Assembly (NCBI GenBank): GCA_026712715.1
Contig: JAPOPW010000034.1
Coordinates: 31,720-95,719 of the forward strand
Length of the DNA: 64,000 nucleotides
Origin: Immundisolibacterales bacterium
GTDB taxonomy: Bacteria > Pseudomonadota > Gammaproteobacteria > HK1
Direction of reading: 5' to 3'
This document shows positions 18,218-58,844 of the stretch, one piece after another; positions within the stretch are counted from its first letter, which is position 1; every line of letters starts with the position of its first letter. Under the pieces are notes generated by a model. It did not search any database and had not been told where the DNA came from. It worked only from the letters and a program-made list of their open reading frames with translations. Both the position numbers and the translations under genes were made by a program.

Positions 18218-18221
<4 letters not shown>

Positions 18222-36820: not shown

Positions 36821-39349
36821 TCAATCGAAGTCGCGCGCCACCCGAAGACCGACGTTGCGATGGATGGCGTAGGCGATCCCGCTTCGATTCGCAGAACGCA
36901 TGCTCCAGGGACGATTGAGCCAGGAGCCGCCACGCAGCGTCCGGAACACGCACTTGCCGCCGAACTCCGCCGCCAGGTAGGCGCTTCCGTCAACCGGGGC
37001 TCCTTCGTAGGTCTTGCGCCAGCAATCCTCCGTCCACTCCCAGACGTTCCCGTGCACGTCGTGCAGGCCGAACGGGTTCGGGGGGAACGAGCCGACCGGA
37101 GCCGTCCGCTTCTGTCCGTCCCACTCGGACTTGCAGCCGGAACAGTTCGCCCGGCCCTTCCCCACCTTCCGGCCCCAGGAGTACCGGGAAGTCGAACCCG
37201 CCCGGGCCGCGTACTCCCACTCGGCCTCGGTCAGCAGGCGGTAGGGCTCGCCCGTCTTCCGCGAGAGCCACTTCACGTACGCGCGCGCGTCCTTCCAGCG
37301 CACACCGACGACGGGACGGCGGCCTTTTCCCCAGCCCTGATCGTCGGGGTTTCTTTTGCAGGCCCCGGCACGAAAACACGATTCCCATTCGGCGAAGGTC
37401 ACCTCGTATCGTCCCACCGCCAACGGCTCGGAGATGGATACGCGGCGCTGCGGTCCTTCGTCGTCGGAGCGGCCCATCTCCGTCCGGGGCGAGCCCATCA
37501 GGTAGCTTCCGGCCGGAACCACCACCATCTCCGGACACTCGCGGCAGTCCCGGAACGTCCGCCCGGGGGTGCGCTCCTCGGCGCGTCGCACCGCCGCGGC
37601 ACGTAGCCCGCGAATCTCCGCGGCGCCGGGACTGTCCCGATGCGACCGGAGATAGTCGTCGTAGGCAGCGACCGTGGCGACGCGAATCGCGCGCGCATGC
37701 GCCGCCCGTTCCGCGCGCCTCGCCTCTTCCCGCCGACGCTCTTCCTCGCGCCGCTTCGCCTCCGCGGCGAGCCGCTCGCGCTCCAGGCGTTCCTGAAGCT
37801 CGCGGCGGGCCGACTCCTCCCGGAGCTCCGTTTCGCGCCGGAACGCGTCGGCCAGGAAGCGTCCCTGCGGTTGCGTGAGCCGGTACTGCTCGAAGCCCTC
37901 GATCGTATCGAGCTGCTCTGCAAGCGCGAACGCCGCTTCATCCGCACGACGCTCCTTCTCACGGCCTCTTTCTTCGGCCGCGAGCCGCTCGCGGGCCAGG
38001 CGCTCCTCCTCCGCCCGGCGTGCCTCTTCTTCGGCCAGGCGCTCGCGCTCGAGCCGTGCTGCCGCGGCCACACGGGCCTCCTCGGCCCGGCGAGCGGCCT
38101 CCCGGCGCTCCGCGTCCGCCACCGCCGCCACCAGCGCGTCGACCTCCCCGCGAGTGAGAAATCCCGTCACCGGCTTGCCGTTGGCCGCCTGGTAGTCGCG
38201 GATCGCGCCGCGCGTCCTCGGACCGAACTTGCCGTCCGCGGCGCCGACGTCGAAGCCGAGAGACGCAAGGCTGCGTTGGACCATGGTCCGGTCCGCCCGC
38301 ACGAGATCCAGGGTCATCTCTCGCGCCGCCGCCAGCTCGACCGGCAGGGGCGACGTCTCGCTCGCGCCATCGGCCGGGCCGCCGGCCGCCGTTCCCGCTC
38401 CGGGCGTCTTCGATCCCTCTCGCTCGTCGCCGGCCGACTCGAGCATCGGCCGGGCTGGATACGTTCCTTCCGATGCGATCGCAACCACCGTCTCCGTCCG
38501 CCCGATGAGGCTCGCGCGCTGCCGCCGCTTGAACTTCCTCCGAACCGCCCGCGTCATGTGACGGTCGAGATACCGCTTCACCTCCCGTGCAGTCACCCGG
38601 CCGTCCTGATTCCGATCACCCTTGCCGTACAGGGCATCTAGGAGATGGTGGGTGAACGCTCCATGCCCCGCCTCCTCATCCCAGGACGCGAGTTGGGCCT
38701 TCGACGCAGCGGTCAGCACCGTGAACCGCCCGTGCGTCTGCACGGGAAGGCTCGCCTCCACGTAGACCGGCGAGGCTGAGCGAACCAGCGTCCCGCCGGG
38801 GCTGTCCCCGGAGAAGCACGCGTCGAGGTACATCGTGACCGAGCGCGCCTCCGTGAGCTTCGCGAGGTTCCCGTAGAGCACGTCGATGGGGAATCCGTTG
38901 ATCTCCGCGGTGTCGGCGTGGGCGTCCGACGGTAGCAGGTACCCCCGGCCGTCCTTCTGGCCCGGCACCCCGTGGCCGGAGTAGTAGACGACGACGTCCG
39001 AACCGCCCTCCGGATTCAGATAGCTCCAGAGATCGCCCTCGCCGCCGTGCTCGCGCTCATTGCCGAAGGTGGTTTCGAGCTCCACCTTCGTGGCGTCGCG
39101 CAGATCGATGATGTTCTCCGGGTCGTAACCGAGCACGTCGAGCACGTAGCGCTTGAACGCCTCCGCATCACGATGCGCGAAGTCCACCGACGGCACGCGG
39201 TCGTTCACGTAGTTGCGGTTGCCGACGATGACCGCGACGCCGTCCGGGTTGGCGAACTCCGCCCGCGCGGTGGCGAGGGGAGCGGACGCGGCCGCAGCGG
39301 CGGCTGCGAGCAGGACGCTCCTGGCGAGCGTGCGGACGTTCTTCACCAT
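36821..39349 (-). CDS. Secreted caspase-like peptidase (C14) + peptidoglycan-binding domain + coiled coil + SUMF1/EgtB/PvdO (FGE-sulfatase) domain protein, paralog 1
   Basis: Track ORF 36821..39637, started at ATG 39349, preceded by GGAGAG. The signal peptide ends ...ATARA/EFANP. The caspase dyad is YYSGHG (H126) and LDACFSG (C178). The PG_binding_1-like module is GAADGKFGPRTRGAIRDYQ. There is a Glu/Arg-rich coiled coil. FGE-type motifs are MVVVPAGSYLMGS, HGNVWEWTEDCW and LRGGSW. Confidence 0.85.
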   Translation of the reverse strand: MVKNVRTLARSVLLAAAAAAASAPLATARAEFANPDGVAVIVGNRNYVNDRVPSVDFAHRDAEAFKRYVLDVLGYDPENIIDLRDATKVELETTFGNEREHGGEGDLWSYLNPEGGSDVVVYYSGHGVPGQKDGRGYLLPSDAHADTAEINGFPIDVLYGNLAKLTEARSVTMYLDACFSGDSPGGTLVRSASPVYVEASLPVQTHGRFTVLTAASKAQLASWDEEAGHGAFTHHLLDALYGKGDRNQDGRVTAREVKRYLDRHMTRAVRRKFKRRQRASLIGRTETVVAIASEGTYPARPMLESAGDEREGSKTPGAGTAAGGPADGASETSPLPVELAAAREMTLDLVRADRTMVQRSLASLGFDVGAADGKFGPRTRGAIRDYQAANGKPVTGFLTRGEVDALVAAVADAERREAARRAEEARVAAAARLERERLAEEEARRAEEERLARERLAAEERGREKERRADEAAFALAEQLDTIEGFEQYRLTQPQGRFLADAFRRETELREESARRELQERLERERLAAEAKRREEERRREEARRAERAAHARAIRVATVAAYDDYLRSHRDSPGAAEIRGLRAAAVRRAEERTPGRTFRDCRECPEMVVVPAGSYLMGSPRTEMGRSDDEGPQRRVSISEPLAVGRYEVTFAEWESCFRAGACKRNPDDQGWGKGRRPVVGVRWKDARAYVKWLSRKTGEPYRLLTEAEWEYAARAGSTSRYSWGRKVGKGRANCSGCKSEWDGQKRTAPVGSFPPNPFGLHDVHGNVWEWTEDCWRKTYEGAPVDGSAYLAAEFGGKCVFRTLRGGSWLNRPWSMRSANRSGIAYAIHRNVGLRVARDFD

Positions 39350-39652: not shown

Positions 39653-40684
39653 ATGTCACAGCCCCTGCCTTCCACCGCCAGACTGCTCGGCCTCGCGGCC
39701 GTGGTGTCCTTCGCCACCGCATGCGCCACCGTGCCCCCCGCCGCGAGTGCGCAGGGCAACGTCGGCACCAACATTCCCGTGCTCGTCATGAGCGAGGACG
39801 AGGATCCGAACACGGTCAAGCGATCCAGCGACATCTTCAAGCGGGTCATCGCCGAGCTCCAGGGCTCGATGCAGCGCCACGGCTTCCGGATGATCGACGA
39901 GGAATCGGTGGCGGCCGACCTGGGCTGGGAGATTTCCGACCGGCGTCCCAAGCGCGAGCTCATCGAGTCCATCAAGCTCATGGGCAAGAGCGGCAAGGCG
40001 TCGCACCAGGTGCGCGCCTGGGTGCTGTTCCGCATCCACGCGCAGGCCAAGCAGCTCTCCTTCGCGACCAAGGTGCAGACCCGCATCGACGGCGAGCTCT
40101 ACGACGCCGCTTCCAACCAGTTCCTCGACACCTTCGAGATGCCCCGGGAGGAATATCCGGCGCCGAAGGACTGCCTGGAGTCCTCGATCTGCATCAGCGA
40201 GGTGGTGGGCGACCGCGCACGCGAGATCGCGGGCGGCCTCGGCGAGGTGCTGGCCCGCAAGCTCGAGCGCTACTCCCCGCCGCGGGCGAGCGGCGCGGGG
40301 AGCGGAACCGCGGTCACCGGCGGCTCGGGCGGCGGAACCCACACCGGCGCGGGCCACGGCATGATGACCCCGTACACGGTGACCCTGCGCTACTTCGACG
40401 ATCGCGAGGCGCTCACCATCATCGGGGTGATGGCCGACGAATTCCCCGGCTACGAGACCCACGACCTCATCAACAAGTCCGCCACCGTCCGGCGCTACGA
40501 GTACCTCACCACCGCGAAGGCGATGAAGCTCGAGGAATGGCTGTTCATCCTGCTCCGCGACATGGGCTTCGACGAGACGCGCGAGATCCTCGTCCACGTG
40601 CAGGGCACCGACATCACGGTGGACAAGCTCATCCCGACCCCGCACCGCCCGGCGTCGCCGGACGAGAAGAAGCGCTTCAACTAG
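39653..40684 (+). CDS. Hypothetical lipoprotein (two domains joined by Gly/Ser-rich linker)
   Basis: This is the C-terminal 343 aa of track ORF 38972..40684. ATG 39653 is preceded by GAGAGGAA. It has a signal peptide with a lipobox-like FATA-C. It is divergent from paralog 1 and is followed by a strong terminator. I recognised no family. Confidence 0.7.
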   Translation: MSQPLPSTARLLGLAAVVSFATACATVPPAASAQGNVGTNIPVLVMSEDEDPNTVKRSSDIFKRVIAELQGSMQRHGFRMIDEESVAADLGWEISDRRPKRELIESIKLMGKSGKASHQVRAWVLFRIHAQAKQLSFATKVQTRIDGELYDAASNQFLDTFEMPREEYPAPKDCLESSICISEVVGDRAREIAGGLGEVLARKLERYSPPRASGAGSGTAVTGGSGGGTHTGAGHGMMTPYTVTLRYFDDREALTIIGVMADEFPGYETHDLINKSATVRRYEYLTTAKAMKLEEWLFILLRDMGFDETREILVHVQGTDITVDKLIPTPHRPASPDEKKRFN

Positions 40685-40710
40685 GAAACGCGGCGACGTC
40701 CCGCCTCGAC

Positions 40711-41064: not shown

Positions 41065-41600
41065 ATGCATGATTTCCACTTCCAGCGCCGGACGATCGTG
41101 AACTATATCGAGCGGTCCCTGGAGCCAATCCTCAGGCGAGCGGCAACCGAGTTTCCCGCGGTGGTGCTGACCGGGCCGCGCCAATCCGGGAAGACCGCCG
41201 TGCTGCGTCGCCTCTTCGGCGGTTCCCATCGTTACGTCTCCCTCGAACCGCCCGACGTGGGGGAGGCGGCGAGAGAGGATCCCTCGGCGGCGCCATCCTC
41301 GAGACTGCGGTCATCTCGGAGATCGTGAAGACTCTCACCCACCGGGCGATCGACCCGCAGGTGCATTTCTGGCGGACGCAGGCGGGAACGGAGGTGGACG
41401 TGGTGGTGGCGGCGCAAGGCAGGCTCGTGCCCGTCGAGGCCAAGCTCTCCGCAACGCCGCGGCCGGGCATGGCGGCCGCGATCCGGACGTTCAGGAAGGA
41501 TCTCGGGGCGGAGGCGTGGCCCGGATACGTGGTTCACCCGGGCGACGTCCGGCTGCCGCTGGGCGACGGCGCGACCGCGCTCCCGTTTGCGGACCTTTAG
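41065..41600 (+). pseudogene. AAA ATPase (DUF4143 family) with large internal deletion and frameshift
   Basis: Track ORFs 41065..41328 and 41325..41600 cover it. The N-terminal ~73 aa (FPAVVLTGPRQSGKTAVLRRLF...LEPPD...EDP) contain the Walker A. They join out of frame to the family C-terminus (AILETAVISEIVKTL...HFWRTQAGTEVDVVV...VEAKLSATP). About 250 central residues are missing. Confidence 0.7.
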
Positions 41601-41630: not shown

Positions 41631-42419
41631 TCACTGGATGACGATGACGCCGCTCCCTCCCTTCTTGTCGTCCTCGTCCTCGTCTTCCGGCATGCGCTCC
41701 GGGGACCCGCCGCCCGGGACGCTGACGACGACGCCGTCGCCGCCGGCCCCGCCGCTCCCGCCCGACTGCGGTGGAGCCGGTGCCGGCGGTTCGGACGCCC
41801 CGGACGCAGCCCCGCCAGCCGGCTCATCGCCCGGCGCACGGTTCGCGGGCGGTTGAAAGGTGACGACCTCGACCCGCCGCTGGGCCGGATCGCCGTGGGG
41901 CAGGTCCTCGCGCGGGCGCTTCTCGCCGTGGCCCCGCACCTCGCGGAAACGGGTCTCGGCGATGGTGAAGTGCTCTCGCAGCCAGGCCGCGACCGCCTCG
42001 GCGCGCCGTTGGGAGAGCTTGCGGTTGAACTCGGCCGGCCCGCTCGAATCGGTGTGGCCGTACACCCCGATCGGTACCTGACCCAGCGCCTCCGAGACGA
42101 GCGCGGCGCCGAGCTCCCGGAGCTGGGCGACGGCGCTCTCGCCGAGCTCGGCCGAGTTCTTCCGGAACTCGACCCGGAGGTCGACGGAGCGGGTCTCGAG
42201 CGGGTCGCCGGTGATCGGGATGAGCTTGCCGACGAGGTCGTCTCGCCCCACCACCGGCACCGTGTCGCCCTCCTTCGGTGCGTCGCCGGCTGCCGCCGCG
42301 AGCGCGGGCAGCCCGCCGGCGAGGACGACGGTGAGCGCGAGCCCCGCCCGCGCCGCCGCTCTTGCGCGCGAACGGCGCCGCGGTCCGCGACGGGGGCCGG
42401 ATCGAGTGCGTGCCGCCAT
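41631..42419 (-). CDS. OmpA-family peptidoglycan-associated protein
   Basis: Track ORF 41631..42419. It has an Arg-rich signal region. The OmpA_C motifs are VEFRKNSAEL..., GHTDSSGPAEFNRKLSQRRAEAV and RRVEVV. The C-terminal tail is acidic and Gly-rich. Confidence 0.8.
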   Translation of the reverse strand: MAARTRSGPRRGPRRRSRARAAARAGLALTVVLAGGLPALAAAAGDAPKEGDTVPVVGRDDLVGKLIPITGDPLETRSVDLRVEFRKNSAELGESAVAQLRELGAALVSEALGQVPIGVYGHTDSSGPAEFNRKLSQRRAEAVAAWLREHFTIAETRFREVRGHGEKRPREDLPHGDPAQRRVEVVTFQPPANRAPGDEPAGGAASGASEPPAPAPPQSGGSGGAGGDGVVVSVPGGGSPERMPEDEDEDDKKGGSGVIVIQ

Positions 42420-42449: not shown

Positions 42450-42911
42450 CTACTGAGCGCGCAGGACCGGCTGCGGCTCGGGCCGCCGCAGCTCGTGGTC
42501 CCGCTCGATGGACGCCACTTCGGGCATCTCGAGAAGGCGGGCGATGAGCTCACCGTCCGCGTCGAGGGCGATGACGGGGAAGAGGCTGAACGTGCGGACG
42601 GCGGCGAGCTCGCCGGCCGGCATGATCGCCGCGAGGCGCTCCATCACCCGCGCGGCGGCCCCCGTGCCCGAACCGTCCCCCACCGCGAGGTTTACGATGA
42701 TCGGCAGCTTCCCGGTCGCCGGCTGACCCGCCGCTTCCGCCGCGCGCACCGCCGCCTCCGGAGACTCCCCTTCCACTGCGGGGACCTGGCAGGCGGCGAG
42801 AAGGCCCGCGAGCAGCAGGCATGCCATCGCGTGCACCACCGCCCCGATCCCGGGAAGGCCCATGCGGCACCCGGCCTCCGGGCCGGCCGCTAACCGGTAA
42901 CGGGTTTCCAT
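42450..42911 (-). CDS. Lipoprotein resembling a stand-alone subtilase propeptide (inhibitor I9-like)
   Basis: This is part of track ORF 42450..43007, started at ATG 42911 (ATG 42863 is an alternative). The lipobox is LLAA-C. IIVNLA...VRTFSLFPVIALDADGELIARLLEMPEVASIERD follows the I9 propeptide pattern. It also parallels VTRRYENFPVLAMEMDRAALRAAKEYGGTVEVFDD in the N-terminus of the adjacent S8 protease. Confidence 0.55.
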   Translation of the reverse strand: METRYRLAAGPEAGCRMGLPGIGAVVHAMACLLLAGLLAACQVPAVEGESPEAAVRAAEAAGQPATGKLPIIVNLAVGDGSGTGAAARVMERLAAIMPAGELAAVRTFSLFPVIALDADGELIARLLEMPEVASIERDHELRRPEPQPVLRAQ

Positions 42912-43102
42912 CCCTTGCCATCCTCCGTCGGTGGGTCGGGCTGCGGCAGCGGGTCCGCCGGCGTCTGGGGCGCGCATCCGATGAGCAGGCCCGTGAGCAG
43001 CAGGCATGCGCCCAGGGCGGACCGCGCGCGCGCGCGGAGGGCGGGGGCGGGGGCGGGGGCGGGGCCTCTCGTCCCAGTCTCTAGCCGGTGATGGCCTTCC
43101 AT
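42890..43102 (-). CDS. Small Pro-rich lipoprotein (70 aa)
   Basis: Track ORF 42890..43102. The signal peptide is ...ALGACLLLTGLLIG-C (lipobox). The start overlaps the S8 gene end by 22 nt and the end overlaps the next gene start by 22 nt. Confidence 0.5.
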   Translation of the reverse strand: MEGHHRLETGTRGPAPAPAPALRARARSALGACLLLTGLLIGCAPQTPADPLPQPDPPTEDGKGWKPVTG

Positions 43103-44616
43103 TCTTTCTTCTCCTTTGCGGGTTCGGTACCTGGTCCCGGCGCGGGCTCCGGCTTGGGTCCGGGACTGCCGCCGGGCTTCGGCTCGAGGGTCAACTGCGG
43201 AACGGGCACCGCGGACGAGCCGGCCGCCGCGGGCCCGAGACGTTCGATGGCCGCGCCGACGTCGATCAGCCGGGCCGCCCGGCCGCCGCTTCGCCGGTCC
43301 GGGATCTGCGGACCGGTGCTCTCGAGCACCCGCAGCAGCTCCTCCACCGAGCTGTGGGGAGACGCCTGCTTCAGGACCGCGAAGGCGCCGGCGACGTGCG
43401 GAGCGGCCATGGACGTTCCCGGCCAGCTATCGAATCCACGCTCCAGCCGGCCTCCTCCCTCGTCCTTCACGACGGACGATTGGATGTCGACCCCGGGGGC
43501 CAGCAGGTCGAGGGTCGGTCCGCTGTTGGAGAAGGAGGCGACCTCCTTCCCCTTCGTGACCGCTCCAACGCTGACGAAGCCCTCGACGCAGGCAGGGAAT
43601 CCCACCGGCGCCGCCCGGTCTTCCTCGGAGTCGTTTCCGGACGCCACCACCACCGGGACCCCGACCTCCCGGAAGAGGCGCGATGCGAGGTCCCACACGC
43701 GCGACGGGCAGACCCCCGGCTCGTCGCGGGACGCACCCAGGCTCATGTTGACCGCTCCGATGACCCCCGGATAGCGCCGCGCGAGGGTGATGACGACGTC
43801 CAGCGCGGCGAGGATGTTCCGTCCGCTCATCCCGCGCCGGCTCCGGTTGGCGACACTGATGATGATGAGCCGAAGTTCCGGCCCGACCCCGGCGAGGTCC
43901 TCGTCCACCGCCCCCCCGAGGGCGATCCCGGCGACGTGGGTCCCGTGCGAGCCGGCCGGAAGGGCCGCGCCCGGGCCGATCATCTCGGGGCGGCCGTTCG
44001 GACAGACGTCGGCGAAGCAGGCCTCGAAGACGGTGCGGCCCGCGAGGAAGGGGTGGCGCGTGTCGGCACCGTCGTCGATGACCGCGACCGCGAGCCCCCG
44101 GCCGGCATAACCCCTCCTCCACGCCCGCGGCGCCCCCACGAGGCTCGCGCTCTCGTCGAGGAGCGGCTCGAGCACCGGGTCGTCGAAGACCTCTACGGTG
44201 CCGCCATACTCCTTCGCGGCCCGGAGCGCGGCCCGGTCCATCTCCATCGCGAGGACCGGGAAGTTCTCGTACCGCCGGGTGACCGCGACACGCGCGGACG
44301 TCCCTTCGAGGCGCTTCACGAACTCGTCGCCGGTGATCGCGACCAGCCCATTGCCGCGGCTCCCCCGGGCGGCCTCGTCGCCGGTGACGGGGCGCCACCC
44401 GGTGACGAGGGCCGACACCGTGCCATCGGACCCGGCGCTCCGAAGGAGCCGCTCGAAGTCGTCGGCGAGGGCGGGCGCCGACGACGGCAGGTGGGCGATG
44501 GCGACGACAAGGGCGGCGAGGAACGAGCGTCGGACGCGGGGACGCCATCGCCCGGCTCGGACCCTGGACTCTCCGGTGGAGGAAGCTCCCTTCGTCTTCG
44601 TCCCGTGCGCCATCAT
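43081..44616 (-). CDS. S8 family (subtilisin-like) serine peptidase, secreted
   Basis: Track ORF 43081..44766, started at ATGATG 44616, preceded by GGAGGAG. It has a signal peptide. The catalytic triad motifs are VAVIDDGAD (Asp), HGTHVAGIA (His) and GTSMAAPHVAG (Ser). Confidence 0.9.
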   Translation of the reverse strand: MMAHGTKTKGASSTGESRVRAGRWRPRVRRSFLAALVVAIAHLPSSAPALADDFERLLRSAGSDGTVSALVTGWRPVTGDEAARGSRGNGLVAITGDEFVKRLEGTSARVAVTRRYENFPVLAMEMDRAALRAAKEYGGTVEVFDDPVLEPLLDESASLVGAPRAWRRGYAGRGLAVAVIDDGADTRHPFLAGRTVFEACFADVCPNGRPEMIGPGAALPAGSHGTHVAGIALGGAVDEDLAGVGPELRLIIISVANRSRRGMSGRNILAALDVVITLARRYPGVIGAVNMSLGASRDEPGVCPSRVWDLASRLFREVGVPVVVASGNDSEEDRAAPVGFPACVEGFVSVGAVTKGKEVASFSNSGPTLDLLAPGVDIQSSVVKDEGGGRLERGFDSWPGTSMAAPHVAGAFAVLKQASPHSSVEELLRVLESTGPQIPDRRSGGRAARLIDVGAAIERLGPAAAGSSAVPVPQLTLEPKPGGSPGPKPEPAPGPGTEPAKEKKEWKAITG

Positions 44617-52556: not shown

Positions 52557-54353
52557 ATGGGCGAGAGGGCCAGGGTCCGGCTCATCCGGGGCGCGCAGAG
52601 CGACGAGCTGCGCGCGACCTTCCGCCAGCTCGCCGAGCTCGACGGACCGAACGGTCCGAAATTCCCGCGACGGGTCCTCATGGAGCTTGCGGCCCGGATC
52701 GTGGGCCGGGCCTACGAGCCGATGCTGCTCGAGCTCTCCCACCTCGCGCGCGCCGCCCGGCTGGCAACGCAGGGGCTGCCGGGAGGGCGGCGCGGCGCGG
52801 ACGCAGGGGCCGGCTTCGAGTGGCTCTTCTGGGGCGTCGAGGAGGCACGGGCCGGTGCGTTCCGGGCCGCCTTCCTCGAATCGAACGGCACCTTCGCGAG
52901 CCCCGCCCCACCTCCGGCGACCCATGACGACGAGGGCCGGTCCGGCGCGGCGGGCGGCGCGCTCCGCATCGGGGAGGACGGCGTCATCCTCAGCTACCCG
53001 GACGGCCGGTTCGAGCTCCGGTACGGACGCATGGTGGACCTCGCCGCAATGATGGAGCTGCTCGTCTCCACCCTCGGCTACCGCGCGCTCGTCGATGTCC
53101 TCGATCCGCTCGCGGCGCCCGTCGTCGACCGCGGGACGGTCGCGGGAGCCGCCCGCGACCTCGCCCGCCGGTTCTACGAGTGGCTGGGCGGCCATCTCCC
53201 GACCGCCCAGGCGCAACGCAAGTTCCACGCGATGATCGCGTTCCTCGAAGAGTCGCTCGGGGCCGACTTCACGGACGAGGACATCGACGACGAGGCGGTC
53301 CTTCGCTTCTGGCTCCGCCAGGTTGCGCCCGCCGGCGGCGAGACGCCGGCGGGCGGCGCGGGCACCGACTTTCGCGGCTACCGCAACACCTTCCTCGCCT
53401 TCCTCGCCCTCGCCCGGGTGCTCGAGGAAGGGGCGGAGCGCGGGCGCTTCGAGCGGCACGTGTCGATCGGCTCCGACTTCGAGGCGGGGGAGATTGACCC
53501 TGCGGCCGAGTCCGCGGCAACGCCGGAGGGCGCGGCCGAGTTCGACCCCCTCGCGCTGCTCCAGGAGGAGCCGGCCGCCGTGATCAAGGCGCTCAACCAG
53601 CGCGAGCTCACCCTCCTCCGGCTCCCGGTCGGAGAAAACGACGGGGTGCGGCGCCTGCCCCGCTCGTACCTGCGGGCCGAGTGCTTCGGTCCGGTGCAGA
53701 ACCGCCTGTCGCAGGCGCTACGCCGCAAGGCGGGCGCGGCGGAGCTCGCGGCGGTGGTCGCGGCCGGGCCGGATCCGGGCTATCGCGCCCGGATCGAAGC
53801 ACTGAAGAAGGCCGACGTGCACGTGCGCCGGGTGGCCAGGGCGTGCCTCTTCGTCCTGCACCGGATGGGGGGCGACGCGGGCGGCGGCGGCGGCGAACGC
53901 GACCGCGGACGCGCGAAGACCGGCCCCGGCGAGGGAAGCGAGAGCGGCGTCGGGCCGGTGCTCGACTTCCGGCTTCTCGGGGAAGCCCGCAAGGCATTCG
54001 AAGGACTGAACCGCGCGGGCTTCGAGCGCTCCGCCCCGAGCGACCCCGAGCTCGCGCCCGCCTACGGCGCGCTCGCGGACACCTTGCCGTGCGTCGCCGA
54101 ACGTCTGGGGGCGGTCCTTCTCACCTTCGGTCCGCCGGACTCGTGGGAGCGCGCCGAGGCGGAGGATCGCGCGGTCTTCTCGCGCACCTTCGCCCGGCTC
54201 TACGGCGCGGCGACGAACGAGCCGCCGCCGGAACCGGACGGGGAGGCGCGAGGACGCGGTGGCGCTTGCAGCACGCGCGGCGACGGCGGACCGATCCGGT
54301 CGCCGCCCCCGCCGCGCACGAGCCCGGCACGACCGGCGGGAGGACGACCATGA
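52557..54353 (+). CDS. Hypothetical protein (598 aa), no recognisable domain
   Basis: This lies in track ORF 52149..54353, starting at ATG 52557, preceded by GGAGAGGG. It has coding-like GC3 bias and an acidic/helical composition. It is translationally coupled (ATGA) to the next gene. Confidence 0.6.
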   Translation: MGERARVRLIRGAQSDELRATFRQLAELDGPNGPKFPRRVLMELAARIVGRAYEPMLLELSHLARAARLATQGLPGGRRGADAGAGFEWLFWGVEEARAGAFRAAFLESNGTFASPAPPPATHDDEGRSGAAGGALRIGEDGVILSYPDGRFELRYGRMVDLAAMMELLVSTLGYRALVDVLDPLAAPVVDRGTVAGAARDLARRFYEWLGGHLPTAQAQRKFHAMIAFLEESLGADFTDEDIDDEAVLRFWLRQVAPAGGETPAGGAGTDFRGYRNTFLAFLALARVLEEGAERGRFERHVSIGSDFEAGEIDPAAESAATPEGAAEFDPLALLQEEPAAVIKALNQRELTLLRLPVGENDGVRRLPRSYLRAECFGPVQNRLSQALRRKAGAAELAAVVAAGPDPGYRARIEALKKADVHVRRVARACLFVLHRMGGDAGGGGGERDRGRAKTGPGEGSESGVGPVLDFRLLGEARKAFEGLNRAGFERSAPSDPELAPAYGALADTLPCVAERLGAVLLTFGPPDSWERAEAEDRAVFSRTFARLYGAATNEPPPEPDGEARGRGGACSTRGDGGPIRSPPPPRTSPARPAGGRP

Positions 54354-55093
54354 GCAGGCCGTGGAGCGCAAGGAGCGAGGCGGAACGAAAACGAATGGAG
54401 GCGGCGTTCGTGGCCCGCCACGGCGCCGAGATGCTGCTCGACGGCGATTCGGAGCCTCCGCCCGCGACCGGAGACGAGTTGCCGCCCGGAACGCTGCGTC
54501 CGGGCCGCCGACTTCCCTTCGCGCACCTCCACGCGTCCCTGCGCGGTGGCCGGCCGCTGCCGCCCGAGGTCTCGGCCGCGCTTCGATCGGACCCCGCGCT
54601 CCGCGACGACTTCGCGCTCCTCGTCCGCCGGAGCGCCCGCCAGCACCTGCCGCGCGCGGCCGCCGCGGCGGGGCGTGAAGGCATTCTCCGGCGCGAGGCG
54701 GGGGGGTTCGTCGTCCGCCTCGTCGCGTCGCGGGCCGGCCGCGACCAGGTCTACCTCCTCGTCGAGCTGCCCGAGGAGGTGGCCGCGGAGGCACAGGTGC
54801 GGGCAGGACCGGATGCAAACGGTTCCGGGCGCCAGCCGGCGGAGGTTCGGGCGGCTGACGACCGGATCGGCGGGGACCCCGCGCCCGACGCGGCGGGCGG
54901 AACGCCCCCGCCCGCCGCCCGACGCGCGGCGCCTGCCGCACCGGATCGGATGGTCGTGCGGACCGCGGACGGGGAATTCCTGAAGCAGGCCCTCCCGTCG
55001 CCCGAAGACCGCACCGTGCGACTCGTGATGGAGGCGGACGACCCGCTGATACGGGCGGTGGCCGAACCCGCGAGCGAGATCTATCTGCTGTGA
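54350..55093 (+). CDS. Hypothetical protein (247 aa)
   Basis: This lies in track ORF 53681..55093. ATG 54350 is preceded by GGGAGGA and overlaps the upstream TGA. I recognised no family. Confidence 0.55.
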   Translation: MSRPWSARSEAERKRMEAAFVARHGAEMLLDGDSEPPPATGDELPPGTLRPGRRLPFAHLHASLRGGRPLPPEVSAALRSDPALRDDFALLVRRSARQHLPRAAAAAGREGILRREAGGFVVRLVASRAGRDQVYLLVELPEEVAAEAQVRAGPDANGSGRQPAEVRAADDRIGGDPAPDAAGGTPPPAARRAAPAAPDRMVVRTADGEFLKQALPSPEDRTVRLVMEADDPLIRAVAEPASEIYLL

Positions 55094-55259: not shown

Positions 55260-56882
55260 GTGAACCGGATCCGGGTGTTCATCGCGACCACGGAGGGGCC
55301 GGTTGCGGTGCAGAAGATTACCGCCGAGGACCCGGACGTTCCGTCCGTCGCCTGCCGCGACGGCACCACCGAGGTCCTCGCGATCTCACGCGACTACACC
55401 CGCTTCGTCGAGCGGGGCACCGGCCTGGTGGCGGCGCTCACCGGCCACGGCGCGTACCGCCTGGATCTGGACCGGCCGGTGGACGGCGGGCGGAGCTGGC
55501 AGCTACCGGTGCTGCTGGCCCACCTCCTCGAGGCCGAGGGGCGCCTCGCGGGGCCGGACGAGCCCGCCGACCTCGCGCTCCTCGCGACCGGGGAGGTCGA
55601 CCGCGATCAGCGGGTGCGGCGGGGCGGCCGGATCCCCGAGAAGCTCGCCGCCGCGAACGACCTCGTCACCCGGCACCGGCAAGCCGGCCCGCCCCTGGTG
55701 GTGCTGGTGCCGGCGGCGGATCGGACACCCGCGATCGATGCGGCGCCGCCGGCGCCGGGCGGCGACTTCGAAGGCATGGTGTCGGTGCTCGCCTGGGAGC
55801 GGGTCATGGGTCTCACCGACCTCGAGGCGGCGCCGGCGGGCCGGTTGGCACCGCATGCGGGACGGGCGCCGGGCGATGCCCCGGACCCGCAAGCGGGCGC
55901 GGGCGGAGGCGCATCACGCGCCGTCCCGAAAGACGCCGCCCGGCGGGCGGCGGAGAGCGGCACGGGCAACGGCTCGCATCGCGGCCCCACCGGCGACTCC
56001 GGGGACGTGGACGCTCCCCCGCGCCGGCCCGCGAATCCGTCCACGCCGTCACGAGAGCACGCCGCCGCCGAACCGGACCCGGATCCGGTTCCGGCCCCGC
56101 CGGGCGGAGCGGCCGCCGCACGCCCCCGGCGCCGGACGGGGCGGACGGCCACCGCGATCCTTCTCGTCGCGGCAGTGGCGGGGGCAGCGTCCGGAGCCGC
56201 CTGGTGGAACGGCCCGCGGGACTGGGAGATGCTGCGTCGCGCGGGAGACTACGAGGGTCTCGAACGCGCCCTCCGGCAGTCCGTCGTCGCTCCCCTGGCC
56301 GATCGGTACCGGTCCGGACTCCTCGCCGGCGCGCCCGCCCCGGAGAGCCTCGTCTTCAGCCTCGTGGAGCAACGGACGGCGGACGGGCAGCCCTGCGATC
56401 CGGGCGGCTTCCGCGACGCGGACCGCACGGAGCGCGCCCGCCTGGCGGGGACCCCCATGCCCCCCCTCAGGCCGGGGTTCTTTCGCTCCGAGGGGGGCGC
56501 GAGCCTCTGCCGGGCGGTGTATCGCGTCGCCAACGAGGGCGAGCGGCTGGTCTACGTCTACTTCGCGGTCCGGCCGTCGCTCTCGTCGGCGGCCGGCAAG
56601 GCGGAGGCTCCGGCGGTCCGGCGCGCTGCCGCCCTCCCCCCCGGCGCGAGCCTCGCTCTCGACCTCGACCTCGACCTCCGGCTCTTTCGGGACCGGATTC
56701 TCGGTGCCGACCTGCTGGTCCTCGCCGCCCCCAGCCCGTCCCCACAGATTCGCCACGCATTCGAGCTCGCGTCGGAGGCCGGCGCGGGGAGCCGTGCACG
56801 GGGGGCGGCTCCGCTCGATCTCACCGCACTGCCCGCGCTCGGCCTCACCGTCAAGGGGGCGAGCCACGCCATCCTGCGGTAG
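55260..56882 (+). CDS. Membrane protein with N-terminal Lon-protease-like (S16 fold) domain, one TM helix and a C-terminal extracytoplasmic domain
   Basis: Track ORF 55260..56882 (GTG start). PVDGGRSWQLPVLLAHLL...LLATGEVDRDQRVRRGGRIPEKLAAAN...VVLVPAAD parallels Lon_C (DGPSAGIA...AMTGEITLRGxVLPIGGLKEKLLAAHR...VLIPxxN). The TM helix is TATAILLVAAVAGAASGAAWW, around aa 300. Confidence 0.55.
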   Translation: MNRIRVFIATTEGPVAVQKITAEDPDVPSVACRDGTTEVLAISRDYTRFVERGTGLVAALTGHGAYRLDLDRPVDGGRSWQLPVLLAHLLEAEGRLAGPDEPADLALLATGEVDRDQRVRRGGRIPEKLAAANDLVTRHRQAGPPLVVLVPAADRTPAIDAAPPAPGGDFEGMVSVLAWERVMGLTDLEAAPAGRLAPHAGRAPGDAPDPQAGAGGGASRAVPKDAARRAAESGTGNGSHRGPTGDSGDVDAPPRRPANPSTPSREHAAAEPDPDPVPAPPGGAAAARPRRRTGRTATAILLVAAVAGAASGAAWWNGPRDWEMLRRAGDYEGLERALRQSVVAPLADRYRSGLLAGAPAPESLVFSLVEQRTADGQPCDPGGFRDADRTERARLAGTPMPPLRPGFFRSEGGASLCRAVYRVANEGERLVYVYFAVRPSLSSAAGKAEAPAVRRAAALPPGASLALDLDLDLRLFRDRILGADLLVLAAPSPSPQIRHAFELASEAGAGSRARGAAPLDLTALPALGLTVKGASHAILR

Positions 56883-57098: not shown

Positions 57099-58844
57099 TC
57101 AGCGGCGGTTGAGGATTCCGCCCATGATGGTGCCGAAGACCTTCAGGGCCTGCGTCGCCTGCTGCTCCTCCGCCTGTCGCCGATCGCGCAAGCCGCGCGC
57201 CTCCGCAACGTGGCGGCCCCGGGGGAACGCCAACAGATACTCGTGATAGCCGGCCGCGGTGTTCGCCGCCTTCGCCCGCACGAACGCATCGTCGTCCGCG
57301 GCCTGGCGCTTCAGCGTCTCGGCATGCCGCAGCGCATCGCGCTCCCGGCGGGCCTCCGCCACGTGGATCCCGTCCGGAAACATGCCGAGGTACTCGTCGT
57401 ACCCCGCCACCGTGCCGAGCGTCCTGGCCCATGCGAACGCGTCGTCGTCCGCCGCCTTCCGCTTCGCGTCCGCGGCCTTGCGCTTCGCGTCCGCTTCGTT
57501 CCGGGCCGCGGTCAGCCGCTCGCGCTCGCGGCGCTCCGCCTCCACGTTCGCCCGTGCCTGCGCCGCCCGCCCGAACGGCTCCAGCGCAGCCACCTGCCCG
57601 CCCGTGAGATAACCCGTCGGCGAGTATCCCTTCGAGGACTGCCAGCCGCGGATCCCCCGCCGCGTTCGCGGCCCGAACTTCCCGTCCGCGCCACCGACGT
57701 CGAAGTCGAGGGCATTGAGGGCGTGCTGGATCAGGCGGCGGTCCTGCCGGAGGAGTCCGAGCCCCGCCTCGACCTCCCGCGGCGTCAGCGAGGACGGCAC
57801 GGCCGGGGCGGAAGCCGCAGGCGCGGCTGGGGCGGAAACCGCGACCTGCCCTGCGCCGGTGGCCGGAGCGGTCTTGCTCCCGCCCGCCGGGAGGTCTTCC
57901 GTGGCCGGCTGCGTCTCGACGAGGGCCAGCTCCGGCCGGTCCGGGAACCCTCTGCCGCCCGCGAAGGCGGCGAGCACGGTGTCGGCGTTTCCGGTGAAGC
58001 TCACCCGCTGCCGCCGCTTGTAGGTACGGCGCGCCGCGCGGGTCATGTGGCGGTCGAGGTACGCCTTCGCCTCCCGGGCGGTCACCCGCCCGTCCGTGTC
58101 CGCATCGCTCTTGCCGTAGAGGGCGTCGAGGAGGTGATGCGTGAACAGGCCGTGACCCGCCTCGTGATCCCACGACGCGAGCTGCTCCCCCGTCGCCGCG
58201 GTCAGCACCGAGAGGCGCTCCCCGGCCTGCGCGGGAAGGTCGGCGCCGACGTAGACCGGAGAGGCGGACCGGATGAGCATCCCGCCGCCGCCGCTCCCGC
58301 CCGAGAAGCACGCGTCGAGGTACACCGCGACCGAGCGGGCTTCTTCGAGACTGGACAGGTTCTCGTACAGGACGTCGATGGGGTAGCCGTTCAGCTCCGC
58401 GGTATTCGGGTCGGCGTTCACCGGCAGGAGGTAGCCGCGCTTGTCCTCGAGCCCCGGCGCTCCGTGCCCGGAATAGAAGACCACCACGTCCGACCGGCCA
58501 TCGGGGTCGAGGTACGACCAGAGCTCGCTCCGATCCGCGGTCGCCCGGCTCCCGAAGGTGGACCACATCTCGGCCTGGGTCGCGTCACGGAGATCGATGA
58601 CGTTCTCCGGGTCGAACCCGAGCACGTCGACCACGTATCGCCGGAACGCCTCGGCGTCGCGGTGGGCGAACTCCACGTCCGGGATATCGCCCTGGTAGGT
58701 CCGGTTGCCGATGATGACCGCCACCCCGTCCGGGTTCGCGAACTCCGCACGCGCGGGGACGAAGGAGCCGGCGACCGCCGCCGAAATCAAGGCGCACCCG
58801 AGCATGAGAGAGCGAGAGACCGCCCGTGTCGCTTGCGCTGCCAT
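57099..58844 (-). CDS. Secreted caspase-like (C14) + peptidoglycan-binding + coiled-coil protein, paralog 4 (no FGE domain)
   Basis: Track ORF 57099..58865, started at ATG 58844, preceded by GGAGGG. The signal peptide ends ...PARA/EFANP. It has FYSGHG (H127), LDACFSG (C179) and the PG-binding module GGADGKFGPRTRRGIRGWQ. Two tandem copies of a DDDAF...GY.EYL..FP.G.HVAEAR motif lie near the C-terminus. Confidence 0.85.
   Translation of the reverse strand: MAAQATRAVSRSLMLGCALISAAVAGSFVPARAEFANPDGVAVIIGNRTYQGDIPDVEFAHRDAEAFRRYVVDVLGFDPENVIDLRDATQAEMWSTFGSRATADRSELWSYLDPDGRSDVVVFYSGHGAPGLEDKRGYLLPVNADPNTAELNGYPIDVLYENLSSLEEARSVAVYLDACFSGGSGGGGMLIRSASPVYVGADLPAQAGERLSVLTAATGEQLASWDHEAGHGLFTHHLLDALYGKSDADTDGRVTAREAKAYLDRHMTRAARRTYKRRQRVSFTGNADTVLAAFAGGRGFPDRPELALVETQPATEDLPAGGSKTAPATGAGQVAVSAPAAPAASAPAVPSSLTPREVEAGLGLLRQDRRLIQHALNALDFDVGGADGKFGPRTRRGIRGWQSSKGYSPTGYLTGGQVAALEPFGRAAQARANVEAERRERERLTAARNEADAKRKAADAKRKAADDDAFAWARTLGTVAGYDEYLGMFPDGIHVAEARRERDALRHAETLKRQAADDDAFVRAKAANTAAGYHEYLLAFPRGRHVAEARGLRDRRQAEEQQATQALKVFGTIMGGILNRR

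What the first reader, a model, noticed from the sequence alone, without database searches (positions are those of the whole stretch)
36821..58844. Four paralogous caspase-like (C14) / peptidoglycan-binding / FGE-domain mosaic proteins clustered with other envelope proteases in ~22 kb
CDS 36821-39349, 45068-47287, 49496-50971 and 57099-58844 are all on the minus strand. They are clearly paralogous but carry different domain subsets.
- Paralogs 1 and 2 have a signal peptide with an A-x-A site (…ARA/EFANP). They have a caspase-like domain with an intact His/Cys dyad (SGHG … DACFSG), a PG_binding_1-like module, a Glu/Arg coiled coil and a C-terminal SUMF1/EgtB/PvdO-type domain.
- Paralog 3 lacks the signal peptide and the caspase domain.
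- Paralog 4 lacks the FGE domain.

They are interleaved with a DUF4384 protein, an S8 protease operon, an OmpA-like protein, lipoproteins and a lytic transglycosylase. Nearly every product is therefore predicted to act in the periplasm or on peptidoglycan.

C14-FGE fusions have been listed in surveys of prokaryotic caspase homologues. To my knowledge they have no assigned function, and a multi-paralog, multi-protease envelope cluster is not a described system.

Hypothesis: this is a peptidoglycan-anchored proteolytic cascade or an envelope-stress / cell-death module.
Basis: partly seen in the sequence, partly recalled or inferred. Interest (0 to 1): 0.8.

Follow-up and report, generated by a model that had tools for sequence, protein, structure and literature searches.

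The report
Periplasmic wall-anchored caspase gene cluster
This gammaproteobacterial genome carries a real cluster of secreted, cell-wall-binding caspase-like proteases that belongs to a rare, conserved and so far undescribed cell-envelope gene system; its function is still only inferred.

Summary
Four minus-strand genes encode paralogous mosaic proteins:
- P1 and P2 have a signal peptide, a Peptidase_C14 domain, PG_binding_1 and an FGE-type domain.
- P4 lacks the FGE-type domain.
- P3 lacks the signal peptide and caspase. It looks like a 5'-truncated copy with no counterpart in the closest relative examined.

The FGE-type domains are PvdO-like and lack both catalytic cysteines of true formylglycine-generating enzymes.

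- u593 and u248, which have no export signal.
- u549, a membrane protein with a cytoplasmic Lon-protease fold and a periplasmic Ig-like domain.

Together with the lytic transglycosylase (SLT), these three form a core operon. That core recurs in very distant bacteria, and three of four informative distant contexts also carry a C14 caspase.

Within the order, this caspase type and the DUF4384-like protein u620 co-occur in the same 5 of 53 genomes. The S8/lipoprotein/OmpA sub-operon is specific to this clade.

No library or paper that I searched describes the system.

My best reading is that these are wall-tethered periplasmic proteases forming the outer arm of an accessory, envelope-spanning proteolytic surveillance or signalling system. 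The anatomy and the gene linkage are shown. The mechanism and the purpose are inferred.

The parts
36821..39349 (-). P1: signal peptide (39260-39349), Peptidase_C14 (38522-39241), PG_binding_1 (38138-38296), long Glu/Arg-rich coiled coil with two ~40-aa helical-hairpin motifs, PvdO-like FGE-type domain (36833-37540)
   Evidence: The orthologue in L008 is split into two genes.
45068..47287 (-). P2: signal peptide (47138-47287), Peptidase_C14 (46457-47122), PG_binding_1 (46022-46183), one helical-hairpin motif, PvdO-like FGE-type domain (45080-45799)
   Evidence: Orthologues at 65-76% identity lie in syntenic positions.
49496..50971 (-). P3: PG_binding_1 (50561-50725) plus a divergent FGE-type domain with a long insert (49508-50305). 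No signal peptide and no caspase. Probably a 5'-truncated, mislocalised remnant.
   Evidence: Homology to the full-length gene in the same slot of L009 starts only at 50869. The slot is empty in L008. No truncated counterpart in the relatives examined.
57099..58844 (-). P4: signal peptide (58746-58844), Peptidase_C14 (58107-58727), PG_binding_1 (57582-57746), C-terminal helical region with two hairpin motifs, no FGE-type domain
   Evidence: 88% identical orthologue in L008.
47355..49214 (-). u620: exported protein with CsgG/FlgO/LPP20-like regions and a DUF4384-like C-terminus, immediately upstream of P2
   Evidence: Pfam DUF4384 at 20-24 bits, below the cut-off of 27. Atlas score 0.90. Full-length copies in the same 5 of 53 genomes as the caspase, mostly adjacent to it. 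Homologues in L010-L012 and L018.
51163..52047 (+). SLT lytic transglycosylase with signal peptide; first gene of the divergent core operon
   Evidence: Precedes u593 homologues in all distant contexts with upstream sequence.
52557..54353 (+). u593: helical protein without an export signal; no family and no matching solved fold
   Evidence: Family of 574 clusters with no Pfam match. AF2 model pLDDT 82, pTM 0.79. No Foldseek hit, and only generic helical bundles by VIA.
54350..55093 (+). u248: small protein without an export signal; start overlaps the u593 stop by 4 nt
   Evidence: Homologues follow u593 in L015, L017, L018 and L019.
55260..56882 (+). u549: cytoplasmic Lon-protease-fold domain (residues 1-190; near-invariant Ser79 and Lys128), one TM helix (~296-316), periplasmic Ig-like beta-sandwich (358-540)
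   Evidence: (Lon/RadA protease domains Z 8-10, 130-143 residues aligned, 17-23% identity). N-domain 46-49% identical in L015, L017, L018 and L019.
43081..44616 (-). S8 subtilase with signal peptide, N-terminal propeptide-like region, intact Asp/His/Ser motifs and a Pro-rich tail
   Evidence: (mycosin-like at 106 bits, below cut-off). Syntenic in L007-L011. Not seen in the stretches held for L012, L015, L017, L018 and L019.
42893..43102 (-). u70: small lipoprotein; overlaps the S8 stop and the u155 start
42450..42911 (-). u155: lipoprotein whose C-terminal part resembles a subtilisin propeptide/inhibitor I9
   Evidence: Inhibitor_I9 only E=0.051, 14.7 bits, below cut-off.
41631..42419 (-). OmpA-like peptidoglycan-binding protein with an N-terminal hydrophobic segment
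   Evidence: 41% identical homologue at the end of the distant L019 version.
39653..40684 (+). u343: lipoprotein, the most conserved gene of the cluster (95% to L008, 83% to L010, 40% to L018 and L019)

Best explanation
**What the genes encode.** The four genes are three intact members and one truncated member of a family of Sec-exported, orthocaspase-type cysteine proteases.
- Each mature protein starts directly with the caspase fold.
- A PG_binding_1 module follows, which should tether it to the cell wall.
- Each ends in an exchangeable C-terminal module. Most often this is a PvdO-like, lectin-fold domain that cannot be a formylglycine-generating enzyme and probably binds a ligand.

**The system they belong to.** Here they form the periplasmic arm of an accessory, envelope-spanning gene system.
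- The constant core is a lytic transglycosylase, two proteins without export signals (u593, u248) and u549.
- u549 is a membrane protein with a cytoplasmic Lon-fold Ser/Lys domain and a periplasmic Ig-like domain.
- Recurrent companions are a DUF4384-type periplasmic protein (u620), a lipoprotein (u343), an OmpA-like wall anchor and a serine protease. In this clade the serine protease is an S8 subtilase with a possible inhibitor-like lipoprotein.

**Proposed working.**
- The wall-anchored caspases cleave, after Arg or Lys, a periplasmic target that the C-terminal module recognises. They may be Ca2+-regulated through an embedded EF-hand-like loop.
- The event is relayed across the inner membrane through u549 to u593 and u248.
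- The purpose is most likely surveillance of the envelope against damage or invaders, rather than housekeeping.

**Shown:** domain make-up, export signals, catalytic residues, loss of the FGE cysteines, paralogy and module swapping, and conserved gene linkage.

**Inferred:** wall binding, cleavage specificity, Ca2+ control, the relay, and the purpose.
For: **Domains and catalytic motifs**
- Pfam domains and motifs.
- The D-A-C-F-S-G motif has an Asp two residues before the Cys. By my knowledge of metacaspases this fits an acidic S1 pocket.
- Nearest solved relatives are metacaspases, but only weakly (E 0.015-0.2).

**Localisation**
- With an export signal: P1, P2, P4, SLT, u620, S8, u70, u155, OmpA, u343.
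- Without one: u593, u248, P3.
- u549 has one internal TM helix.

**FGE-type domain**
- Nearest to the periplasmic protein PvdO: PDB 5HHA at 192 bits; NCBIfam PvdO at 221 bits, below the 500 cut-off.
- Both catalytic Cys are deleted, in contrast to the genome's own true FGE.
- All three modules are under similar constraint: mean pairwise identity 0.75, 0.60 and 0.68.

**Module swapping:**

**Gene linkage**
- Syntenic in L007-L010. Still linked after rearrangement in L011. Also linked in L012.
- This caspase type and full-length u620 are in the same 5 of 53 genomes of the order.
- The core SLT-u593-u248-u549 recurs in L015, L017, L018, L019 and L021.
- C14 genes are present in L017, L018 and L019. 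u343-like genes are in L012, L018 and L019. u620-like genes are in L018. OmpA and a trypsin-like protease are in L019.

**u549 Lon fold:**. Ser79 and Lys128 are near-invariant.

**Accessory nature**
- u593 family found in 1 of 400 sampled genomes of the class.
- u549 found in 3 of 53 genomes of the order.
- The flanks are ordinary metabolism.

**Precedents**
- A wall-anchored periplasmic effector with cytoplasmic helpers: HXS (PMC13128918).
- DUF4384 is reported as often fused to proteases. It forms the C-terminal domain of some Csx30 substrates of a caspase-like protease.
Against: - There is no functional, expression or binding evidence of any kind.
- Three of the six C14 paralogs in this genome sit alone among metabolic genes, so the family does not need the cluster.
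- The C14-PGB1-FGE family is far larger (at least 1138 hits among 8000 scored candidates) than the u549 family (82 hits).
- L015 has the core but no caspase within 10 kb.
- L019's caspase is a distant subtype with no BLAST match to the window's copies.
- No PADLOC defence model matches the unknown proteins.
- The lectin-like domain is not hypervariable, and no DGR is present.
- The Lon-fold domain might be inactive, as in RadA, which matches it equally well.
- PvdO itself is named an enzyme by NCBIfam, so the domain might be catalytic rather than a binding module.
Confidence: 0.4

Rival explanations
1. There is no system. The paralogs are independent periplasmic, wall-bound proteases for turnover or maturation of envelope proteins. 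The cluster is a neighbourhood kept by descent and local tandem duplication among other envelope housekeeping genes.
For: - Three further paralogs are solitary.
- The copy number in the slot next to u620 varies from 0 to 3 between relatives.
- P3 is truncated, and P1 is split in L008.
- The S8 module is missing from several versions.
Against: - Linkage persists at 40-50% identity and after rearrangement.
- Linkage reappears with different caspase subtypes in distant lineages.
- Caspase and u620 co-occur in exactly the same 5 of 53 genomes.
- The rare, patchy distribution does not fit housekeeping.
Confidence: 0.2
2. The system builds or maintains a trans-envelope structure such as a secretion, motility or surface apparatus. 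The lytic transglycosylase opens the wall, OmpA anchors the structure, and the proteases process subunits.
For: - SLT is the first gene of the core in every version with upstream sequence.
- Distant versions add about 7 further exported, lipoprotein or multi-TM genes plus OmpA in one long operon.
- PDB relatives of the FGE-type domain include the T9SS ring lipoprotein PorK/GldK.
Against: - No component matches any known secretion, pilus or motility family in Pfam, NCBIfam or PADLOC.
- The window's genome lacks those additional genes altogether.
- No ATPase or other recognisable energy source was found.
Confidence: 0.2
3. This is a periplasmic maturation pathway. The PvdO-like domain is an active enzyme that modifies a periplasmic peptide or metabolite, by analogy with pyoverdine maturation. 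The fused caspase trims the same substrate.
For: - The FGE-type domain is closest to PvdO, which NCBIfam names dihydropyoverdine dehydrogenase.
- The domain is well conserved (0.68 mean identity).
Against: - The score is far below the PvdO equivalog cut-off (221 against 500 bits).
- There are no NRPS, siderophore or precursor-peptide genes in the window.
- The module is interchangeable with non-enzymatic helical repeats in close paralogs.
- A wall anchor is hard to reconcile with a soluble metabolite pathway.
Confidence: 0.1
4. One reading: a zymogen cascade in which one protease activates another (caspase and S8), ending in programmed cell death.
For: - Three protease types (C14, S8, Lon fold) are encoded together.
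- S8 has a propeptide-like region, and a neighbouring lipoprotein weakly resembles inhibitor I9.
- Distant versions carry trypsin plus C14.
Against: - The caspases have no prodomain: the fold starts about 6 residues after the signal-peptide site.
- S8 is absent from the stretches held for most distant versions.
- No lytic or pore-forming effector was recognised.
- The I9 match is below threshold.
Confidence: 0.1

Closest known systems
Prokaryotic metacaspase/orthocaspase-FGE-sulfatase fusion proteins (Asplund-Samuelsson et al. 2012, PMC3501461)
   Same: Same Pfam architecture of C14 followed by FGE-sulfatase. A PG-binding domain is also listed among metacaspase partners. The His/Cys dyad is intact.
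   Different: - The surveys give no function, localisation or gene context. They assumed the FGE-type domain modifies sulfatases.
- Here the catalytic Cys pair is absent, export signals are present, and the genes sit in a conserved multi-gene cluster.
PvdO (PDB 5HHA), periplasmic pyoverdine-maturation protein
   Same: It is the best solved relative of the C-terminal domain (192 bits, full-length alignment). It is periplasmic. By my recollection it also lacks the FGE catalytic cysteines.
   Different: - The score is far below the NCBIfam equivalog cut-off (221 against 500).
- Here the domain is fused to a caspase and a wall-binding module.
- There is no pyoverdine or NRPS context.
FGS (FGE-sulfatase, C-type-lectin fold) sensor/effector domains of NTPase-centred conflict systems (Kaur et al. 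2020, 2021; PMC7159879, PMC8195603)
   Same: A lectin-fold FGE-type domain sits at the C-terminus of multidomain proteins that can carry caspase domains. Multiple paralogs carry different modules in one genome.
   Different: - Those systems are cytoplasmic, built around STAND/vWA-MoxR NTPases, and often diversified by DGRs.
- Here the proteins are exported and wall-binding. No NTPase is linked, no reverse transcriptase or template repeat is found, and there is no hypervariability.
HXS anti-phage system (PMC13128918)
   Same: An exported effector anchored by a peptidoglycan-binding domain, encoded with cytoplasmic partner proteins. P2's PGB region weakly matches HxsA (37.5 bits).
   Different: - HXS has no protease. 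It relies on rSAM enzymes and HxS repeats.
- The match is below the cut-off of 121 and confined to the PGB module.
- A defence role is untested here.
Type III-E CRISPR Craspase: the caspase-like protease Csx29 cleaving Csx30 (bioRxiv 10.1101/2022.08.17.504292)
   Same: A caspase-family protease is paired with a protein that can carry a DUF4384 domain. That paper notes DUF4384 is often fused to protease domains.
   Different: - Craspase is cytoplasmic and RNA-guided, with a TPR-CHAT protease.
- Here there is no CRISPR. The DUF4384-like protein is exported and scores below the Pfam cut-off.
- Whether u620 is a substrate, a regulator or an anchor is unknown.
Lon (S16) proteolytic domain and the Lon-like domain of RadA
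   Same: The N-domain of u549 has this fold: Z 8-10 over the whole domain, 17-23% identity. It has a conserved Ser and a Lys 49 residues later.
   Different: - There is no AAA+ module.
- The domain is fused to a TM helix and a periplasmic Ig-like domain.
- It is not detected by Pfam or by a PDB sequence profile.
- Activity is untested.

Membership tests
Peptidase_C14 (caspase/metacaspase/orthocaspase) | Profile match above the curated threshold | tested here: met
   P1 47.1, P2 44.3 and P4 48.7 bits against a cut-off of 21.4. P3 has no match.
Peptidase_C14 (caspase/metacaspase/orthocaspase) | Catalytic His and Cys in the conserved motifs | tested here: met
   SGHG and DACFSG are invariant in 8 aligned members.
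Peptidase_C14 (caspase/metacaspase/orthocaspase) | Proteolytic activity and P1 specificity (Arg/Lys for metacaspase-type enzymes) | not testable with these tools
   Indirect only. An Asp lies two residues before the Cys, as in metacaspases (my knowledge). PDB metacaspases match only weakly (E 0.015-0.2).
Formylglycine-generating enzyme (FGE/SUMF1) | FGE-sulfatase fold (Pfam PF03781) | tested here: met
   178-216 bits against a cut-off of 23.3.
Formylglycine-generating enzyme (FGE/SUMF1) | Pair of catalytic cysteines in the C-terminal C-x4-C motif | tested here: not met
   The genome's own FGE (contig C21) has LCHPDSCFRYR. P1, P2, P3 and the other fused copies have a 3-residue deletion and no Cys there.
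PvdO (NCBIfam NF051459 equivalog) | Score above the equivalog cut-off | tested here: not met
   220.9 bits against a cut-off of 500. It is the closest PDB relative (5HHA, 192 bits).
PG_binding_1 | Profile match above threshold | tested here: met
   36.7-47.3 bits against a cut-off of 23 in all four paralogs. Actual wall binding was not tested.
DUF4384 (u620) | Profile match above the Pfam gathering score | tested here: inconclusive
   20.2 and 24.4 bits against a cut-off of 27. The nearest Atlas clusters are 88-98% DUF4384 (score 0.90, 178 shared features).
Peptidase_S8 subtilase | Profile match and the Asp/His/Ser triad motifs | tested here: met
   149.8 bits. The DDGAD, HGTHVAG and GTSMAAPH motifs are in the sequence.
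Lon protease (S16) proteolytic domain (u549 N-domain) | Lon P-domain fold | tested here: met
   - VIA Z 8-10, 130-143 residues aligned over model residues 1-190, dozens of Lon and RadA chains.
- Foldseek probability 1.00.
- Model confidence in residues 14-76 is low.
Lon protease (S16) proteolytic domain (u549 N-domain) | Catalytic Ser-Lys dyad in the structurally equivalent positions; sequence-profile membership | tested here: inconclusive
   - Ser79 and Lys128 are near-invariant, but residue-level superposition was not available.
- No Pfam match and no PDB sequence-profile match.
DGR-diversified FGS receptor | Reverse transcriptase plus template/variable repeat; hypervariable C-terminal region | tested here: not met
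   - No RVT_1 match in the 97.9%-complete genome.
- Repeats in the cluster are only the 60-82% identical paralog segments.
- The FGE-type domain has 0.68 mean identity with no hypervariable stretch.
Known anti-phage defence systems (PADLOC-DB v2) | Match of the system's proteins to defence models | tested here: not met
   - Only generic hits: subtilase 75.6 bits, caspase 21.6 bits and MotB-like hits for OmpA.
- Nothing for u593, u248, u549, u620, u155 or u343.
HxsA (TIGR03979) | Score above the cut-off; HxS repeats | tested here: not met
   37.5 bits against a cut-off of 121.65, confined to the PGB region.
Peptidase inhibitor I9 (u155) | Profile match above threshold | tested here: inconclusive
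   E=0.051, 14.7 bits against a cut-off of 21.2, covering only the last third of the profile.

The most novel reading that the evidence does not exclude
The cluster is the local form of a previously undescribed, widely scattered trans-envelope system. Its parts would be SLT, a protein with no matching solved fold (u593), u248, a membrane-anchored Lon-fold protein, wall-tethered periplasmic caspases, a DUF4384 protein, a lipoprotein, OmpA and a serine protease. The system would detect events at the peptidoglycan layer, such as phage entry or wall damage, by proteolysis and signal them into the cytoplasm. That would be a periplasmic counterpart of caspase-based immunity.
Probability: 0.3. Interest if true: 0.85.

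Novelty: new variant of a known kind. Interest (0 to 1): 0.62.

Why it matters
- Bacterial caspase homologues are numerous, but very few have a known role, and the known ones act in the cytoplasm (gasdermin activation, Craspase).
- This analysis gives the common but unexplained caspase-FGE fusion a predicted location (periplasm, on the cell wall). It rules out the assumed sulfatase-modifying activity. It also places the fusion in a conserved gene context with defined candidate partners.
- It brings to light a family of at least 574 sequence clusters (u593) and a membrane-bound Lon-fold protein (u549), neither of which has any annotation.
- If the system senses events at the wall, it would open a compartment that is little explored for bacterial immunity or stress signalling.
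- If it does not, the caspase-u620 pair still makes the function of periplasmic caspases directly testable.

Tried and rejected
- **Complex prediction** of the P2 caspase module with u620 gave no verdict (score 0.00). It is not evidence either way.
- **u549 periplasmic domain as DUF4384.** A shared '(V/L)A(A/S)PSP' motif suggested a link to u620's DUF4384-like domain. hhalign probability was 0.1, so I dropped the idea. I describe the domain only as an Ig-like sandwich.
- **Extra genes in the distant versions.** By eye, the 173-196 aa multi-TM protein looked MotA/ExbB/TolQ-like and the 138-148 aa protein ExbD-like. Pfam and NCBIfam gave no support, so I make no such claim.
- **P0043 as a conserved P3-like truncated form.** It is a frameshifted P2-like copy among transposases.
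- **DGR diversification.** No reverse transcriptase and no template repeats were found.
- **u593 fold.** Foldseek found nothing at E<0.5. VIA found only generic helical bundles at Z<=7.2 covering residues 329-549. The Atlas found nothing. The N-terminal half was barely tested, so I cannot call the fold new.
- **PDB sequence profile of u549** found no Lon match. Only the fold comparison found it.
- **Database names** for homologues held by NCBI: none on record.
- **Promoter/terminator scan** found fewer sites than in shuffled sequence, so it was uninformative in this 70% GC genome.
- **L007's 394-aa call** at the u593 position is a wrong-frame gene call. I removed it from the alignment.

Full report
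**Setting**

The window is 64 kb of a 70% GC contig (G000:C40) from a 5.06-Mb draft genome that is 97.9% complete. Named relatives carrying the same cluster are metagenome-assembled Gammaproteobacteria: a Pseudomonadales MAG and a Ca. Azotimanducaceae MAG. Because high GC produces many spurious ORFs, I called genes by third-position GC. I then corrected the boundaries by mapping the called genes of relatives onto the window.

All four genes lie at the stated coordinates on the minus strand. Pfam finds these domains above the curated cut-offs:
- Peptidase_C14, PG_binding_1 and FGE-sulfatase in P1 and P2
- PG_binding_1 and FGE-sulfatase in P3
- Peptidase_C14 and PG_binding_1 in P4

The catalytic motifs SGHG and DACFSG are present. 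They are invariant in eight aligned family members, two of them from distant bacteria.

No SignalP was available, so I made a simple measurement instead. P1, P2 and P4 have positively charged N-termini, a 12-residue hydrophobic core with mean Kyte-Doolittle 2.1-3.0, and an A/V-R-A|EFANP site. P3 has nothing comparable (0.69). The mature proteins begin about six residues before the first strand of the caspase fold, so there is no prodomain.

**The family in this genome**

The genome has six C14 genes and nine FGE-type genes.
- All six C14 proteins share the signal peptide, caspase and PG_binding_1 modules.
- Four end in an FGE-type domain, one in Ala-rich helical repeats, and P4 in short helical-hairpin motifs.
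- Caspase modules are 62-83% identical, and the two closest pairs (83% and 77%) differ in their C-terminal module.
- P3's PG_binding_1 is 85% identical to P2's, while its FGE domain is only 44-50% identical to any other copy and carries a long insert.

So 'mosaic' is accurate. Diversity arises by module exchange. Among 32 P2-like proteins the three folded modules are similarly conserved (0.75, 0.60 and 0.68 mean pairwise identity) and only the linkers vary. No reverse transcriptase or template repeat is present.

**The FGE-type domain is not an FGE**

The genome's own bona fide FGE has the LCHPDSCFRYR cysteine pair. All caspase-fused copies have a three-residue deletion there and no cysteine. 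The closest solved structure is the periplasmic protein PvdO (5HHA, 192 bits). Other relatives are non-FGE members of the fold, such as T9SS PorK and the Treponema variable protein. The NCBIfam PvdO model scores 221 bits, against a cut-off of 500.

I read the domain as a lectin-fold binding module, as proposed for FGS domains in cytoplasmic conflict systems. A PvdO-like enzymatic role cannot be excluded.

**P3 is probably a remnant**
- In L009 the same slot, between SLT and u620, holds a full-length 705-aa C14-PGB1-FGE gene.
- In the closest relative, L008, the slot is empty.
- Homology of P3 to the full-length form begins only at 50869, so the signal peptide and caspase are deleted.
- The only candidate for a conserved truncated form proved to be a frameshifted copy among transposases.

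Between P3 and P4 lies a plus-strand operon: SLT (51163-52047), u593 (52557-54353), u248 (54350-55093) and u549 (55260-56882).
- u593 and u248 have no export signal. u549 has one internal TM helix.
- The AF2 model of u549 has an N-terminal domain that matches Lon and RadA protease domains. The match covers its whole length: Z 8-10, 130-143 residues aligned, 17-23% identity, Foldseek probability 1.00.
- u549 also has a periplasmic transglutaminase-type Ig-like sandwich. Ser79 and Lys128 are near-invariant in 22 homologues.
- u593 gives a confident, mostly helical model (pLDDT 82, pTM 0.79). It has no convincing structural match and no Pfam family.

**Conservation of the cluster**

*Close relatives (65-95% identity; L007-L010).* These repeat the layout [u549-u248-u593-SLT] <-> [0-1 caspase] u620, caspase(s), S8, u70, u155, OmpA, plus u343. 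In L008 they also repeat P1 and P4.

*More distant relatives.*
- L011 (40-60% identity) is rearranged but keeps the same genes together.
- L012 has SLT-u593-u248-u549-caspase-u620 and u343, but no S8 within 10 kb.

*Within the order's 53 genomes.*
- The caspase module is found in five genomes from two genera.
- Full-length u620 is found in exactly those five, usually adjacent to the caspase.
- u549 is found in three.

*The other three C14 genes of this genome.* They are solitary, next to a Znu transporter, a hydantoinase and dehydrogenases.

**A much wider system**

A profile search with u593 finds 574 clusters at 50% identity, 198 of them at E<=1e-30. Even so, an even sample of 400 genomes of the class held it only in the window's own genome. 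The caveat is that only three candidates per genome were scored.

Contexts of distant members:

| Locus | Source | Content |
|---|---|---|
| L015 | NCBI CP000471.1 | TM protein, two SLT, u593-like, u248-like, u549-like (Lon N-domain 47% identical), six further exported or membrane proteins; no caspase within 10 kb |
| L017 | metagenome contig | an FGE-domain gene and a C14 gene flanking the same core |
| L018 | NCBI GCA_018401495.1 | C14 (58% to P4), split u620-like, u343-like (40%), SLT, core, five of the L015 extra genes |
| L019 | Logan contig | u343-like, trypsin-like protease, SLT, core, the extra genes, OmpA (41% to the window's), a distant-subtype C14 |

Three of the four distant contexts with enough flank therefore include a caspase. 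The window's genome lacks the extra genes and has the S8-u70-u155-OmpA unit instead. None of these proteins matches Pfam, NCBIfam or PADLOC families beyond generic domains.

**Literature**
- Surveys list metacaspase-FGE fusions (33 of 671 sequences) and a PG-binding partner. They assign no function and assumed formylglycine chemistry.
- The Aravind-group papers treat FGS domains only in cytoplasmic NTPase systems.
- DUF4384 is noted as often fused to proteases. It is also the C-terminal domain of some Csx30 substrates of the caspase-like Csx29.
- The HXS system shows that a PG-anchored periplasmic effector with cytoplasmic helpers can block phage.
- I found no paper on a periplasmic caspase system.

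**Interpretation**

What is shown:
- Exported proteins of caspase type with intact dyads and wall-binding modules
- Exchangeable C-terminal modules
- Robust, recurrent linkage to a core operon that spans the cytoplasm, the inner membrane and the periplasm

What I infer:
- The caspases are wall-tethered.
- They are specific for basic residues, because an Asp lies two positions before the Cys, as in metacaspases.
- They may be Ca2+-controlled through an invariant EF-hand-like loop.
- Their target is chosen by the lectin-like module.
- Their action is coupled through u549 to u593 and u248.

The rare, patchy distribution, the expansion of paralogs and the module swapping fit an accessory surveillance or defence role better than housekeeping. 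But no known defence model matches, and no functional data exist.

Rival readings remain open:
- Independent wall-associated proteases
- Assembly of an envelope machine
- A PvdO-like maturation pathway
- A zymogen cascade leading to cell death

**Verdict**

Its centre of gravity shifts from 'four paralogs among envelope proteases' to 'the periplasmic arm of an undescribed envelope-spanning system'. The function is unproven.

Noticed in passing
window 46400-46500 (P2), 38500-38560 (P1), 58040-58110 (P4); alignment A8 columns ~213-229: All caspase modules, including the two distant ones (L017, L018), carry an invariant EF-hand-like loop (D-x-D-x-D-G-x-V-T-x-x-E-x-x-x-Y-L) near the end of the caspase domain. 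The caspase profile weakly matches calcium-binding proteins at this spot. This suggests Ca2+ regulation.
   Followed up: partly
window 43081-43102 and 42893-42911: S8/u70 and u70/u155 overlap by about 20 nt in the same way. The upstream protein ends in W-K-x-(I/V)-T-G and the downstream protein starts M-E-x-x-x-R-L inside it. The overlaps are conserved in L008 and L009. This points to translational coupling, and perhaps to u70 having arisen by a junction duplication.
   Followed up: no
window 41065-41597 (+): Remnant of an AAA_14/DUF4143 ATPase gene. It matches residues 1-75 and 310-416 of the intact 416-aa gene of L008 at 95% identity, so an internal deletion of ~230 codons is inferred.
   Followed up: no
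window 58873-59146 (-): A fragment with in-frame stops just upstream of P4. It is homologous to a 109-aa gene in L008. By eye, the C-terminal motif (HHRDPFDRLL..AQA) looks like a PIN/VapC toxin.
   Followed up: no
window 35975-36700 (-): Directly downstream of P1 lies a glutaredoxin plus DinB_2 fusion, conserved next to P1 in L008. DinB_2 is the N-terminal domain of EgtB-type enzymes, whose C-terminal domain has the FGE fold. The juxtaposition may be coincidence.
   Followed up: no
window 12042-18221 (+): A 2059-aa ORF with UvrA interaction and DNA-binding domains and several ABC-type P-loops. It is about twice the length of a normal UvrA.
   Followed up: no
window 37545-38137 (P1), 45830-46000 (P2), 50340-50520 (P3), 57150-57480 (P4): A ~40-residue motif recurs one to two times between PG_binding_1 and the C-terminal module in all four paralogs. 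It reads D-D-x-A-(F/Y)-x-x-A-x-x-x-(N/G)-T-x-x-x-Y-x-x-Y-L-x-x-(F/G)-P-x-G-x-H-x-x-E-A. No Pfam family matches it.
   Followed up: no
L008:18221-20731 (orthologue of P1): In the closest relative, P1 is split into a 403-aa C14+PGB1 gene and a 404-aa FGE gene. The break falls where the window's P1 has its long Glu/Arg coiled coil.
   Followed up: no
L012:2337-4118: The u593 homologue of the Ca. Azotimanducaceae MAG contains two in-frame stop codons, and its u620 match covers only residues 87-338. This copy of the system may be decaying.
   Followed up: no
window 39653-40684 (+): The lipoprotein u343 is far better conserved than its neighbours: 95% to L008 and 83% to L010, against 60-88% for the other genes. 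It recurs at ~40% identity in the distant L018 and L019 versions. It has no family and no structure.
   Followed up: partly
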